A stretch of DNA of 11,296 nucleotides, taken from Promethearchaeota archaeon (GTDB taxonomy: Archaea > Asgardarchaeota > Lokiarchaeia > Sigyniarchaeales > SOKP01). The first letter of the stretch is position 1. Each line of letters starts with the position of its first letter. Positions 2,566 to 11,296 of the stretch are shown one piece after another. The DNA is taken from assembly GCA_048940445.1 (NCBI GenBank), contig JBHLON010000069.1, forward strand, positions 1-11,296, in the 5' to 3' direction. A program made the translations under genes and the position numbers. The notes below the pieces were generated by a model, which was given only the letters and a program-made list of their open reading frames with translations, was not told the DNA's origin and did not search any database.

Positions 2566-3876
2566 TTATTCTTCTTTGAATATGTTAAGGGTTTTACCCT
2601 TCATATAATTAGGTTTTGATTTATCAAATAATCTAAGTATTATCGGAGCTACATCGGTATAATTAATTAACTCCATCGACCCTTTTTTTATATTTTTTCC
2701 ATAAGCCATGAAGAATCCTCGATTTGTATGACTAAATACCTCTGTGTTTCTCGTTAGAAAATAAGAGCAATCTTTGAAAAAAATATAGTCATCTCTGAGA
2801 GCTATAAGGAAATCAGGAAATTCAGGATTATCAAATTCAAAAATCTGATCAACATATCTATCACGTTTAAGAACTTTTTTTATTACTTCTTTTTTATGTC
2901 TATCTTTTCCGAATAAAAATAAACCACCCATATTTGACGTTAATTTCTGAATAAATGTTTTAGGTTGTGCTTTATCAAAAAATTCTAATCTGCGTTCTTT
3001 TTTTCTTTCTATTTCTCTTTTCTCAGCATTAAACAGTCTTTGATAAATCCTTTTTGAAATATATACTGGGAGAAAAGGTCTTACTAAATCATATAATTTC
3101 AATATAATATTATTGATGCGTTTCCCTTTTAAGTCATTTAGAAAGAGTAATTTTTTCTTTTCTAATAGTCTGGGAAAATATAATACTCGTTTATAAAATT
3201 TTAATCCATGATCACTCAGGATAAGTATATTATCAAATTGATTATATCTAAATAATTCTCCAAGAAAGGAATCAATTTTTTTATATCCTAAATTCATTGC
3301 ATTTAATATTATCTTTTTATCACCAAATACTCGATGAGAGATAGAATCAGGCACTCTTATTACATATACCATTAAATCAAAATCTTCCTTCATTTTTTCT
3401 AGAAATAATTTTTTTTTCATTTTAAATGCCTTGAGGATTTCTGGGAGATCCTTGCCTTCAATTATCCATTTATTCTTAATTTGGTCTTCCAATCCTTTAG
3501 GATAACACGAAATGGAAGGTGAAAGGATCCCTGTGATCATTTGACCATTTATTGGCCAAGCAGGGTAAGTACCTGGTACATTTAAAGCAAAAACCTTCAA
3601 GTCATTGATGGAAAATAATGATTTTTCTTTCCACACACTTGAATTAAAAATTCCTTTAATTGGGTGGATAAATGTATAATATCCTAGCCCTTCAACATCT
3701 AAACCAGAAAAAAGACACGGCCAAGATGGTATTGTAGCATGTGGAACCGTCACTTGAATGGGAGCAGTAAACCCATCAATAAAGAATTTTTTAAAATTAG
3801 GAAGAACATTTTGTTTTATTAATGGTAAAATACTTTCAAAACAACCCCCATCAATTCCAATGATGACGTTCCTCGT
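2566..3876 (-). CDS. Alkaline-phosphatase-superfamily protein, type I phosphodiesterase/nucleotide pyrophosphatase-like (paralog 1). Start extended to near-cognate ACG 3876 (or ATA 3879), about 436 aa
   Basis: The frame continues 41-43 codons upstream of the track's GTG (3753): (I-I-)T-R-N-V-I-I-G-I-D-G-G-C-F...LPNFKK, which includes the metal-ligand Asp of GIDGG. In-frame TGA at 3885-3883. Other motifs: Thr nucleophile (ATIPSW), PDSISH, SDHG, C-terminal His (FSHT) and DVAPIIL. The family call is confident; the exact start codon is not. Confidence 0.85.
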   Translation of the reverse strand, partial: TRNVIIGIDGGCFESILPLIKQNVLPNFKKFFIDGFTAPIQVTVPHATIPSWPCLFSGLDVEGLGYYTFIHPIKGIFNSSVWKEKSLFSINDLKVFALNVPGTYPAWPINGQMITGILSPSISCYPKGLEDQIKNKWIIEGKDLPEILKAFKMKKKLFLEKMKEDFDLMVYVIRVPDSISHRVFGDKKIILNAMNLGYKKIDSFLGELFRYNQFDNILILSDHGLKFYKRVLYFPRLLEKKKLLFLNDLKGKRINNIILKLYDLVRPFLPVYISKRIYQRLFNAEKREIERKKERRLEFFDKAQPKTFIQKLTSNMGGLFLFGKDRHKKEVIKKVLKRDRYVDQIFEFDNPEFPDFLIALRDDYIFFKDCSYFLTRNTEVFSHTNRGFFMAYGKNIKKGSMELINYTDVAPIILRLFDKSKPNYMKGKTLNIFKEE

Positions 3877-3882
3877 TATAAT

Positions 3883-3887
3883 TCACC
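3883..3887 (-). promoter_or_regulatory. Shine-Dalgarno GGTGA for NPP paralog 1
   Basis: Minus strand reads TCT GGTGA ATT ATA ACG AGG AAC. GGTGA is the 3' part of the archaeal GGAGGTGA consensus and lies 6 nt before ACG. Confidence 0.6.
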
Positions 3888-4034
3888 AGATTAACAGAAA
3901 TTATAGACTTTATTAGATTGAATTGATAAAAACTAAAAAGTTTGTTGAAAATAAAATTAGGTCTTCTTTATATCTTATTGTTAATGATCAAGATAAAAAA
4001 ATCTTATTTAATCTAGTATTATTATATTCTAATA

Positions 4035-9404: not shown

Positions 9405-11087
9405 CTAAATATCAATAAACTTTTGAAGTTTTAATTCCAAAGCAGCTACAGGAAATTCTAATTTGAAATTATTTAATACCTCAGGATGAATTTCTCCAAT
9501 TTCTCCGATCTTATTGCTATCTAAAAATATTTCACCATATCTACCTTTAATATAGGTTGGATTATCAGCCGGTTTTACCTCATAATTTAAATCATGACCT
9601 AAAGTTGTCATTAAATAATCTAATGTTGAACGTATTTCAGTGAAGTCTGCATCTTCATGATAAGTTACTACTGCAAGATTAATCTCTCTTTTGGCACCTG
9701 TTTCTTCTTTAGGTTCTAGTAAAATTACATCTCCCACTTCAAAAATTCTAATTGGTTTCTCTTCAGATCGATTAAATAGTAATGTTTCCATTAACTTTGG
9801 CAAAATCTTTGTTCTTAATGTATTATATTCTTTTGAAACCGGATTTTCAATTTCTGTTCTCTCTTGTTTATCACATTTTTGGTTCATAAATATAAATTGT
9901 TTTTCAGAACTCGCCAGAAGAAAATTTAGGACTTCTAGATAGCCTGCTCCAATCATAATTCTTCGAATTTTATTTGCAAAATCTTGTATAGGATGATATT
10001 TTCCTATTCCTCCTTCTCTTATTGTAAGTGGTAATTTGAAATATCCATATCCCATTGCACATTCTTCAGTGAAATCGATTGGATGAATAATATCTCCTCT
10101 ATAAGCAGGTACCAAAACATCCAAAAATCCCTTTTTTTTTGATTTTATAGCATTCATCCTAACTTTTTGGAAACATTTTATCATATCTGTAGGAGTTAAA
10201 TTTAAGCCCATAACACTATTAATATAATCGATATCTACTTCCCATTTAGTGGGATCCAAGTTAGGTGTGATAATTTCTTGTTCTCCTTCATAATTTACTA
10301 TTACACTTTCTATAGTTGCCCCCATATCTGCTAAAGTTGTAGTTAAAATATTTAATGCAAGATTTATTGCCTTAAAGTCGGTGCCTGTTAGATCTAAAAA
10401 TAAATTTTTTGTATCATCCGTAACTGTAGTTAATACTCCATTTATAATTGGAGGAAATGAGAGTACTTCATCATTTTTATCAAATATCATTGGATATACT
10501 TCTTTTCCTTCTAAAATATGAGCATACTCGATACCCTTTTCGTGTAATAATAAAATCTCCTCTAAATTCATCGGATATCCATCTCCATGTAAGGGTTCGA
10601 AGCTTACCGAATCAGGCTTTACAGCAGTATACCTGTAGGGAGGTGTCACCTTATCTAAATCGTGAACACCGATAGCTACCTTTTTTCGGTCTCTTCCAAC
10701 AGCCCAATGCAATTGTTCTTGAATATTCATTAATGTAGCAACCTCATCTTCATCTAAGTCAATATTTCGAATTACACCACACACTATATATGGTCTAACT
10801 TTTTTTACACTTGGGTCCACGTTTAGAGTTATATTTCCTTCCGTGATTTCAAACTTAGGTAAACCTAATTCAAGTTCATAATAACCCTTAAGAACCCTTG
10901 CAATACCTTCTGGACTTGAAAAATCGGGTCTGTTAGGATTGTATTCCACTTTAAGCTTTTGTTCTTGTTCATCAATACCCTCTAAATCTAAACTGATCCA
11001 TTGCAAATCATATTCTAACTTCTTTAAATCTAATTTCTTTCCAACTAATCGTTCTAATCTTTCAATTTTTAATTCAAGCGAAGGAAT
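9405..11087 (-). CDS. pheT: Phenylalanine-tRNA ligase beta subunit, archaeal/eukaryotic type. Start extended to ATT 11087, about 560 aa
   Basis: NRPDF..EGIAR, QEQLH...GRDRKKVAIGVHDLD, SFPPIING, VPAYRGDIIHPIDFTEE..MGYGY, IENPVS, IFEVGDV and GEIHPEVLNNFKLEFPV. No bacterial OB or B8 domains. There are 27 further in-frame codons upstream of the track's TTG 11006 (IPSLELKIERLERLVGKKLDLKKLEYD), resembling the usual archaeal M-P-x-hydrophobic N-terminus. Confidence 0.96.
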   Translation of the reverse strand: MPSLELKIERLERLVGKKLDLKKLEYDLQWISLDLEGIDEQEQKLKVEYNPNRPDFSSPEGIARVLKGYYELELGLPKFEITEGNITLNVDPSVKKVRPYIVCGVIRNIDLDEDEVATLMNIQEQLHWAVGRDRKKVAIGVHDLDKVTPPYRYTAVKPDSVSFEPLHGDGYPMNLEEILLLHEKGIEYAHILEGKEVYPMIFDKNDEVLSFPPIINGVLTTVTDDTKNLFLDLTGTDFKAINLALNILTTTLADMGATIESVIVNYEGEQEIITPNLDPTKWEVDIDYINSVMGLNLTPTDMIKCFQKVRMNAIKSKKKGFLDVLVPAYRGDIIHPIDFTEECAMGYGYFKLPLTIREGGIGKYHPIQDFANKIRRIMIGAGYLEVLNFLLASSEKQFIFMNQKCDKQERTEIENPVSKEYNTLRTKILPKLMETLLFNRSEEKPIRIFEVGDVILLEPKEETGAKREINLAVVTYHEDADFTEIRSTLDYLMTTLGHDLNYEVKPADNPTYIKGRYGEIFLDSNKIGEIGEIHPEVLNNFKLEFPVAALELKLQKFIDI

Positions 11088-11093
11088 ATATGC

Positions 11094-11100
11094 TCACCTC
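11094..11100 (-). promoter_or_regulatory. Shine-Dalgarno GAGGTGA for pheT, overlapping the pheS stop codon
   Basis: Minus strand reads AAA T GAGGTGA GCATAT ATT CCT TCG: a 7-nt SD match with a 6-nt spacer. Confidence 0.8.
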
Positions 11101-11296
11101 ATTTATAATAAGACTGATGTCTTAACCACTTTATTGGATTAATATAGAAGTCTCTCATATCACTCCTATCATAGTAAAGCATTGCAATTCTCTCTAATCC
11201 TTGACCCCACGCTAATACGCGTGTTGGTTCTCGAATTCCCCATGGATAGGTTACCTCTGGTCTAAATATTCCAGATCCTCCTAATTCTAACCATTC
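11099..11296 (-). CDS. pheS: Phenylalanine-tRNA ligase alpha subunit, C-terminal 65 residues (runs off the window; missing from the ORF track)
   Basis: Manual translation gives EWLELGGSGIFRPEVTYPWGIREPTRVLAWGQGLERIAMLYYDRSDMRDFYINPIKWLRHQSYYK*. It has the archaeal PheS WxELGGxGIFRPE segment and class II motif 3 (AWGxGLER), and lies directly upstream of pheT. Confidence 0.96.
   Translation of the reverse strand, partial: EWLELGGSGIFRPEVTYPWGIREPTRVLAWGQGLERIAMLYYDRSDMRDFYINPIKWLRHQSYYK

What the first reader, a model, noticed from the sequence alone, without database searches (positions are those of the whole stretch)
3753..11102. Recurrent SD-guided non-AUG initiation: 3 of 8 visible gene starts have no ATG/GTG/TTG
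Seen: pheT (GAGGTGA-6nt-ATT), NPP paralog 1 (GGTGA-6nt-ACG, or 3nt-ATA) and NPP paralog 2 (GAGG-7nt-ATA) each have conserved N-terminal coding sequence closed off upstream by an in-frame TGA. No canonical start lies between that stop and the conserved residues, and each candidate codon is one mismatch from ATG. Established: prokaryotic starts are overwhelmingly ATG/GTG/TTG, with ATT known from rare regulated cases such as E. coli infC and pcnB; archaeal start-codon fidelity involves aIF1, aIF1A and aIF2. Inference: three cases in 11 kb, spanning a housekeeping gene and accessory genes, suggest a lineage-wide relaxed initiation code in which the SD positions the ribosome and near-cognate codons are accepted. 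Standard gene callers would systematically truncate such proteins. I cannot check whether this has been reported for this lineage.
Basis: partly seen in the sequence, partly recalled or inferred. Interest (0 to 1): 0.9.

Follow-up and report, generated by a model that had tools for sequence, protein, structure and literature searches.

The report
Non-AUG start codons in Lokiarchaeon
In this AT-rich Asgard (Loki-type) archaeon, three intact genes in the window and an estimated 2-3% of all genes very probably start translation at ATT, ATA, ATC or ACG placed 5-7 bases behind a strong ribosome-binding site, so common gene finders cut their proteins short.

Summary
Observation confirmed. The contig is from a Promethearchaeota (Lokiarchaeia) genome. 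pheT (ATT 11087), NPP1 (ACG 3876) and NPP2 (ATA 5535) have no ATG/GTG/TTG before 27-41 conserved codons. Each codon sits where orthologs carry ATG or another near-cognate codon: pheT 35 ATG, 15 ATA, 7 ATT, 6 TTG, with 3 changes on the tree; NPP family 16 ATA, 3 ATG. Genome-wide, in-frame codons 5-7 nt behind GGTG(A/T/C) are enriched for ATT (28 vs 2.0 expected), ATA (14 vs 1.5), ATC and ACG. That gives about 50-70 genes: 2-3% of the genome, not 3 in 8, but about a third of genes with such an SD. Near-cognate starts almost always have a strong SD; most ATG starts have none. Coupling, read-through, AUA=Met and an altered anti-SD are not supported. aIF1 is intact in relatives and itself lacks a canonical start in 29 of 36 family loci, which suggests infC-like feedback (inferred). 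Initiation was not shown experimentally, and the non-Loki controls are small. I found no paper on the lineage-wide pattern, but this scan noted it before in other Loki genomes and elsewhere in this one.

The parts
11094..11100 (-). Shine-Dalgarno GAGGTGA of pheT; overlaps the pheS stop (11101-11099), and its own TGA closes the pheT frame
   Evidence: duplex with anti-SD -11.7 kcal/mol; anti-SD taken from relatives' 16S
11085..11087 (-). ATT start codon of pheT
   Evidence: orthologs carry ATG/ATA/ATT/TTG in this column; residue 2 aligns with residue 2 of PDB chain 2cxi_A; NCBI call is 560 aa
9405..11087 (-). pheT, phenylalanyl-tRNA synthetase beta subunit, 560 aa, intact
   Evidence: Pfam PF17759, PF03484, PF03483; single match in this genome
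3883..3887 (-). Shine-Dalgarno GGTGA of NPP paralog 1; first gene of a divergent pair, no upstream gene to couple to
   Evidence: -7.4 kcal/mol
3874..3876 (-). ACG, most likely start of NPP paralog 1 (alternative: ATA 3879-3877 at only 3 nt spacing)
   Evidence: same column as ATA/ATG/ATT/ATC in homologs; the closest ortholog has GGTGA-6nt-ATA; near-cognate spacing peaks at 5-7 nt
2566..3876 (-). NPP paralog 1, type I phosphodiesterase/nucleotide pyrophosphatase family, 436 aa
   Evidence: PF01663 matched from model position 2, upstream of the first canonical codon
5517..5527 (+). Shine-Dalgarno region of NPP paralog 2; contains the in-frame sulfatase stop TGA 5523-5525
   Evidence: -9.3 kcal/mol
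5535..5537 (+). ATA start codon of NPP paralog 2
   Evidence: family column, 16 of 24 homologs ATA; in four homologs ATA/ATT is the first codon after a stop
5535..6839 (+). NPP paralog 2, PF01663 family, 434 aa
   Evidence: 44% identical to paralog 1; the IIGIDGG motif is invariant
4035..5525 (+). Sulfatase-family gene (ATG, no SD), in frame with and ending 9 nt before the NPP2 start; context for the read-through rival
9371..9373 (-). Internal control: GTG start of chorismate mutase behind GGAGGT
   Evidence: -10.7 kcal/mol

Best explanation
These are real translation starts. This genome has two kinds of start region. Most genes have no SD and start at ATG; a minority (about 8%) have a strong SD. 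On SD-led mRNAs the 16S 3' end holds the 30S subunit so that the codon 5-7 nt after GGTGA lies in the P site. There the ordinary Met-tRNAi (anticodon CAU) is accepted on a codon one mismatch from AUG (AUU, AUA, AUC, ACG, probably CUG), giving a normal Met-started protein, probably at lower yield. Strong SD pairing makes up for the weak codon pair. In a 30% GC genome ATG can then drift to ATA/ATT wherever a strong SD already exists, and it has done so repeatedly. aIF1 is still present, and its own gene has a conserved ATT start, which suggests it still discriminates and sets the tolerance by feedback, as IF3/infC does. SHOWN: no canonical start; homologous position; SD dependence; spacing; repeated switches; about 2-3% of genes; ordinary anti-SD and initiator anticodon arm in relatives; aIF1 without a canonical start. 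INFERRED: initiation by Met-tRNAi, lower efficiency, drift as the driver, aIF1 feedback.
For: pheT column in 63 distinct orthologs: 35 ATG, 15 ATA, 7 ATT, 6 TTG. The near-cognate label needs 3 changes on the tree (2 forced by well-supported branches), the outgroups are ATG, and the ATG sister clade of this genome's clade already has GAGGTGA. SD energy at pheT: ATH -11.4 vs ATG -8.5 (kin are not independent). At r-protein starts: -8.7 vs -6.0. NPP column: 16 ATA, 3 ATG, 2 ATT, ATC, TTG, ACG. Genome-wide, ATT, ATA, ATC and ACG are the four most enriched codons behind the SD; AAG and AGG are not enriched; excess 47 (strict SD) to 64 (broad SD) of 3042 genes. Spacing peak 25/36/10 at 5/6/7 nt, where control codons fall to 2/3/6. 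With starts defined by homologs and no SD filter (421 genes): SD at 15% of ATG starts, 31% of GTG/TTG starts and 10 of 14 near-cognate candidates. Relatives use ATA/ATT/ATC at S8, S14, L15, L22, L6, L14 and S4e. aIF1 has no canonical start in 29 of 36 family loci. Precedent: S. aureus AUU/AUA starts with extended SDs at about 10-30% of AUG yield (PMC13009471); aIF1 discriminates against AUU in vitro (PMC4705826).
Against: No protein or ribosome data: the start is inferred from DNA. NPP2 and aIF1 have off-peak spacing (9 nt from GTGA). For NPP1, ACG versus the ATA one codon upstream is not settled. Controls outside Lokiarchaeia cover only r-protein regions (near-cognate at SD: other Asgard 3 vs 7.9 expected, other archaea 7 vs 6.5, bacteria 5 vs 11.6, this family 12 vs 4.9). 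They cannot exclude a 1-2% rate elsewhere, and single probable cases occur there. This genome's own aIF1, 16S rRNA and initiator tRNA are not assembled, so those features come from relatives.
Confidence: 0.8

Rival explanations
1. Each near-cognate start is a selected, gene-specific regulatory device (infC/ccpN type) that keeps expression low or ties it to aIF1 levels, rather than a tolerated by-product of strong SDs.
For: The aIF1 ATT is conserved across at least five genera of the family. The NPP family keeps ATA in 16 of 24 homologs. Near-cognate pheT clades are stable internally.
Against: pheT moves between ATG, TTG, ATT and ATA within one family. r-protein starts are near-cognate in only some relatives and canonical in this genome. 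The candidate list in this genome looks functionally mixed.
Confidence: 0.25
2. The starts work only by termination-reinitiation from the upstream gene, or NPP2 is made as a sulfatase-NPP fusion by UGA read-through.
For: The pheS stop overlaps the pheT SD, and the sulfatase stop is in frame 9 nt before the NPP2 ATA. UGA recoding exists in Asgard archaea (own knowledge).
Against: Only 18% of near-cognate sites lie within 25 nt of an upstream same-strand stop, against 31% of canonical SD starts; 75% are more than 80 nt away or have none. NPP1 heads a divergent unit. No fused open frame was found among fetched homologs, and two other same-frame arrangements end in TAA and TAG.
Confidence: 0.07
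3. Artefact: assembly errors, pseudogenes, or proteins that really start at the downstream TTG/GTG.
For: MAG sequence. The contig comparison could not fix every base because its table was cut. Some frames without a start elsewhere in the genome are broken genes or overlaps.
Against: The same ATT/ATA occurs in 21 other pheT orthologs from separate assemblies. pheT has one intact match in the genome and is essential (own knowledge). Truncation would remove 27 residues that align with a solved PheT N-terminus, and the invariant IIGIDGG strand of both NPPs. The SD-spacing signal cannot come from random errors.
Confidence: 0.04
4. The RNA or the decoder differs: RNA editing restores AUG, a modified or second initiator tRNA reads AUH, or AUA means Met as in mitochondria.
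For: ATH codons dominate the set. Base modifications cannot be seen in DNA.
Against: ACG, and probably CTG, are used too, so one wobble change cannot cover all cases. At internal Met columns ATA is 6%, like ATT and TTA at 4% each. The canonical initiator arm occurs once in each of 24 genomes (control 4 matches), whereas variant-anticodon arms occur at chance level (14 matches, fewer than the backward control).
Confidence: 0.06

Closest known systems
Bacterial SD-assisted near-cognate starts: S. aureus infC (AUA), cvfC1 (AUU), ccpN and citZ (AUA) (PMC13009471); E. coli infC and pcnB (AUU)
   Same: One-mismatch codon at the Met1 position, held by a strong SD at normal spacing.
   Different: Four sites were found in S. 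aureus, mostly conserved. Here there are about 50-70 genes, about a third of GGTG-type SD genes, the codons switch freely between relatives, and the machinery is aIF1/aIF2 rather than IF3.
IF3 (infC) and eIF1 autoregulation through a poor start (PMC4705826, PMC6237735)
   Same: The fidelity factor's own gene has a conserved weak start: ATT in most of this family, ATA in several related lineages.
   Different: Not described for archaeal aIF1 in the papers I could search; the feedback is inferred from sequence only; the gene is not assembled in this genome.
Alternative initiators of NCBI table 11 (ATT, ATC, ATA, CTG)
   Same: NCBI's annotation of this contig already starts PheT at the ATT.
   Different: A permitted list, not a described lineage trait. 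ACG is not in it (own knowledge), and NCBI chose other ATT codons for both NPPs (438 and 427 aa).
Single ATT start of Kariarchaeaceae atubA (PMC13394414); near-cognate alternative sites in Haloferax ribosome profiling (PMC7261190)
   Same: Archaeal near-cognate starts; the atubA case is an Asgard gene with an RBS at plausible distance.
   Different: One gene, called rare, in another Asgard class. The Haloferax sites are putative alternative starts that the authors set aside, not the only start of main genes.
Mitochondrial AUA/AUU initiation (tables 2, 5)
   Same: AT-rich genome, ATH starts.
   Different: AUA is not Met internally here, and the starts depend on an SD.

Membership tests
SD-assisted near-cognate initiation (infC/pcnB/ccpN/cvfC1 type) | Codon one mismatch from AUG at the homologous Met1, with no canonical start available | tested here: met
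SD-assisted near-cognate initiation (infC/pcnB/ccpN/cvfC1 type) | Strong SD at the spacing used by canonical starts, with a normal anti-SD | tested here: met
   peak at 5-7 nt; stronger SD than ATG orthologs; anti-SD normal in 8 relatives; NPP2 is off-peak
SD-assisted near-cognate initiation (infC/pcnB/ccpN/cvfC1 type) | Initiation mapped experimentally, with lower yield than AUG | not testable with these tools
   needs proteomics, initiation-site profiling or reporters
SD-assisted near-cognate initiation (infC/pcnB/ccpN/cvfC1 type) | Rare and conserved as a regulatory site | tested here: not met
   about 50-70 genes; pheT switches on the tree; met only for aIF1 and partly for the NPP family
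IF3/eIF1-type autoregulation of the fidelity factor | The factor's gene has a conserved poor start | tested here: met
   no canonical start in 29 of 36 family loci, 4 of 7 other class loci, 1 of 6 other order loci, 3 of 8 other Asgard loci; not in this genome's assembly
IF3/eIF1-type autoregulation of the fidelity factor | Factor level inversely controls its own translation | not testable with these tools
   needs in vitro or in vivo dosage
Loss of aIF1 or altered initiation hardware | aIF1 absent or broken; anti-SD or initiator anticodon changed | tested here: not met
   aIF1 over cut-off in 124 of 138 class genomes; its neighbours are also missing from G000, so an assembly gap; initiator arm canonical
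Loss of aIF1 or altered initiation hardware | Function-changing substitutions in aIF1, aIF1A or aIF2 | tested here: inconclusive
   the basic loop and helix lysines are kept; order-specific changes (ACGG to ASGG, IEG strand end to VxF) seen, effect unknown; aIF2 alpha and gamma not examined
Mitochondrial-type code (AUA = Met) | ATA interchangeable with ATG at internal positions | tested here: not met
   117 ATA, 83 ATT, 82 TTA against 1331 ATG at 1947 internal Met columns
Termination-reinitiation coupling | Start next to the upstream gene's stop | tested here: not met
   18% vs 31% for canonical SD starts; true for pheT and NPP2, not for NPP1

The most novel reading that the evidence does not exclude
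Lokiarchaeia run two initiation modes: a stringent, SD-free AUG mode for most genes and an SD-clamped permissive mode. aIF1, translated from its own conserved AUU, is a feedback dial that jointly tunes the 2-3% of genes with near-cognate starts. This would be an archaeal start-stringency regulon, parallel to eIF1 control of non-AUG initiation, in close relatives of eukaryotes.
Probability: 0.3. Interest if true: 0.85.

Novelty: new variant of a known kind. Interest (0 to 1): 0.65.

Why it matters
Reviews state that archaea start at AUG, GUG and UUG and that SDs are rare in Lokiarchaea (PMC7531240, PMC12993045). Here the rare SDs mark the genes where the start codon is free to decay, at a rate well above the handful of cases known per bacterial genome. 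It bears on how start-codon stringency and aIF1/eIF1 control evolved before eukaryotes, and it is testable: the pattern extends to the family that holds cultured Ca. Lokiarchaeum ossiferum. In practice, Asgard protein sets are truncated: 69 of the 120 listed aIF1 homologs lack the N-terminal CxxC (some may be contig-edge fragments), and database calls cut PheT and both NPPs. That affects domain calls, structure prediction and cloning.

Tried and rejected
aIF1 loss: attractive when G000 had no SUI1 match, rejected because 124 of 138 class genomes have it and the aIF1-16S-initiator tRNA neighbourhood is missing from G000 as a block. Altered anti-SD, second initiator tRNA, AUA=Met, coupling and read-through: not supported. 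The first ortholog tests were noisy: one search included shadow frames, and very close relatives aligned in non-coding DNA; they were replaced. Sequencing runs: no RNA holder listed. Contigs of four DNA runs were laid, but the difference table was cut. Run X5 (a separate study) shows no A>C change anywhere and appears to span the pheT codon; X2 (possible source) shows no A>G change and spans the NPP2 codon; the NPP1 base could not be read off. No PDB sequence match for NPP2; no Rfam match in the window; the sigma-70 scan was uninformative. Ten literature searches found no report of the lineage-wide pattern; subscription papers are not covered. The L15 column was misplaced by one codon, so its five 'ACG' rows in the pooled SD mean are offset; S8 and S14 show the same trend without it.
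Full report
Setting. The window is contig C53 of a 3.64-Mb, 30% GC assembly. Its PheT relatives are mostly titled Promethearchaeota, and a genome of the same order has the exact length published for Ca. 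Lokiarchaeum ossiferum, 6,035,313 bp. The organism is a Lokiarchaeia-type Asgard archaeon. Pfam names the genes as GT2, GT4, NPP, sulfatase, NPP, GT4, RNase PH, chorismate mutase and PheT; the partial frame at the right end is read as pheS from its sequence and position.

Observation. The three contexts are as reported: pheT GAGGTGA-6nt-ATT (11087), NPP1 GGTGA-6nt-ACG (3876) and NPP2 GAGG-7nt-ATA (5535). The first canonical codons lie 27, 41 and 41 codons downstream. The closing TGA is the SD's own TGA for pheT and NPP1, and the sulfatase stop for NPP2, so it adds no independent weight. The NPP genes are paralogs, so the window has two independent cases.

Homologous position. Among 30 same-genus pheT loci the column reads ATG 9, ATA 15, ATT 6. 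Among 63 distinct orthologs it reads ATG 35, ATA 15, ATT 7, TTG 6 and nothing else. The tree needs 3 changes for the near-cognate label (at least 2 forced by well-supported branches), with ATG in both outgroups. The ATG sister clade of this genome's clade already has GAGGTGA, which fits 'strong SD first, codon decay second'. Residue 2 aligns with residue 2 of PDB chain 2cxi_A. In 24 NPP homologs the start is ATA 16, ATG 3, ATT 2, and ATC, TTG and ACG once each. In four of them ATA or ATT is the very first codon after a stop. The closest ortholog of NPP1 has GGTGA-6nt-ATA, which favours ACG over the upstream ATA. Starting at the GTG codons would drop the invariant IIGIDGG strand, whose Asp is a metal ligand in this superfamily (own knowledge).

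Genome-wide rate. I counted in-frame codons upstream of the first canonical codon in 3042 frames of 100 codons or more. At 5-7 nt behind GGTG(A/T/C): ATT 28 (2.0 expected), ATA 14 (1.5), ATC 5 (0.5), ACG 3 (0.1), CTG 1 (0.1), AAG 2 (0.9), AGG 1 (0.4); GTA and GTT show a weak excess (4 and 3 vs 0.5). The excess is 47 genes against 85 canonical starts at the same SD; with a broader SD set it is 64 against 225. Allowing for the SD's own GTG gives 25, 36 and 10 near-cognate sites at 5, 6 and 7 nt, where control codons drop to 2, 3 and 6. A test without an SD filter, using 421 genes whose start is fixed by a homolog's ATG, gave 14 near-cognate candidates. Three are the window's genes, which my ortholog pool over-samples; 10 have a GGTG-type SD and four are doubtful. 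Both methods give about 2-3% of genes. Only 7.6% of first canonical starts have a strong SD, which agrees with reviews that SDs are rare in Lokiarchaea. SD frequency rises from 15% (ATG) to 31% (GTG/TTG) to about 70% (near-cognate).

Range. Relatives in the genus show the same excess (ATA 4 vs 0.4, ATT 3 vs 0.5, ATC 2 vs 0.1). Several genera of the family use ATA, ATT or ATC at r-proteins S8, S14, L15, L22, L6, L14 and S4e, while this genome's r-proteins are canonical. A closed genome in the family of L. ossiferum shows 6 sites against about 0.4 expected in 367 genes; in 140 ortholog pairs it has 1 case against 3 with an SD in G000. In r-protein regions the counts are 12 vs 4.9 expected for this family, 3 vs 7.9 for other Asgard, 7 vs 6.5 for other archaea and 5 vs 11.6 for bacteria. 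This suggests enrichment in Lokiarchaeia, but the controls are small, and single probable cases occur elsewhere (PMC13394414).

Machinery. G000 lacks matches for aIF1, 16S rRNA and initiator tRNA. In relatives these lie in one neighbourhood, and aIF1's neighbours are also missing from G000, so this is an assembly gap. aIF1 passes the cut-off in 124 of 138 class genomes. It keeps the basic loop and helix lysines and has order-specific substitutions of unknown effect. The 16S 3' end is the ordinary GAUCACCUCC, and the initiator anticodon arm is canonical. aIF1 itself has no canonical start in 29 of 36 family loci, with a conserved ATT six codons before the first Cys, and ATA in several other lineages. 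Since aIF1 rejects AUU in vitro and IF3 and eIF1 regulate themselves through poor starts (PMC4705826; PMC6237735), feedback is a reasonable inference, but it is not shown.

Mechanism. The best reading is SD-clamped initiation by the ordinary Met-tRNAi on one-mismatch codons, with AT drift filling the permitted sites (0.8). Coupling is not needed: 18% of sites are near an upstream stop against 31% of canonical SD starts. No sulfatase-NPP fusion was seen, and ATA is not Met internally. Error or pseudogene explanations fail on conservation across separate assemblies; the contig comparison is consistent with this but was cut.

Comparison and novelty. It works like the S. aureus AUU/AUA starts with extended SDs (four sites, 10-30% of AUG yield; PMC13009471) and like E. 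coli infC/pcnB. It differs in scale and lability, and in domain of life. NCBI's annotation already starts this PheT at the ATT but picks other ATT codons for both NPPs, while Logan/JGI calls truncate all three. Ten searches found no paper on the lineage-wide pattern. This scan has noted the same phenomenon in other Loki genomes and on other pieces of this genome; I treated those notes as leads, and the numbers above are my own. Verdict: real, a new variant of a known kind, interest 0.65.

Noticed in passing
L177:3924-4275 and L135-L196 (aIF1 loci of relatives): aIF1 has no canonical start in most of the family (conserved ATT) and in several other Asgard lineages (ATA); public gene calls range from 65 to 119 aa, and 69 of the 120 listed lack the N-terminal CxxC.
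   Followed up: yes
G000:C84, minus strand, about 60,560-60,660: A low-molecular-weight phosphatase/ArsC-like gene has a 21-nt insertion with a TAG inside its CTG-N-x-x-RS active-site motif: a small intron or a broken gene.
   Followed up: no
L132, L133 (G000:C59 and C4): Two aIF1A paralogs in this genome, both with ATG starts and basic N-terminal tails.
   Followed up: partly
L138, L160 and others (G005, G026, G007, G143, G105): Several relatives carry a second, divergent aIF1 copy.
   Followed up: no
window 4035-6839: The sulfatase and NPP2 are in one frame, separated by a single TGA; the closest relative (L211) keeps this arrangement. Read-through is not supported but not excluded by experiment.
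   Followed up: partly
window 1-8021: A cluster of glycosyltransferases with a sulfatase and two NPP-family genes sits beside rph, chorismate mutase and pheST; it probably serves surface-glycan modification. The NPP family was found in only 25 of 131 family genomes at the cut-off used.
   Followed up: no
G000:C77, C48, C26, C85 (GTT) and several GTA sites: GTT and GTA show a weak excess behind GGTG (3 and 4 vs 0.5 each). One GTT sits where paralogs have ATT/ATA, so two-mismatch starts may occur.
   Followed up: partly
L318, L076, L077, L078, L081: Probable single near-cognate starts outside Lokiarchaeia (uL24 at ACG in a metagenome archaeon; S3 and an RNase P subunit in other Asgard).
   Followed up: no
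G000 tRNA genes (C97, C101, C119, C94, C72): Many tRNAs carry introns; only 13-18 tRNA genes were detected, and ARAGORN's Ile(TAT) call on C72 looks like a misread intron.
   Followed up: no
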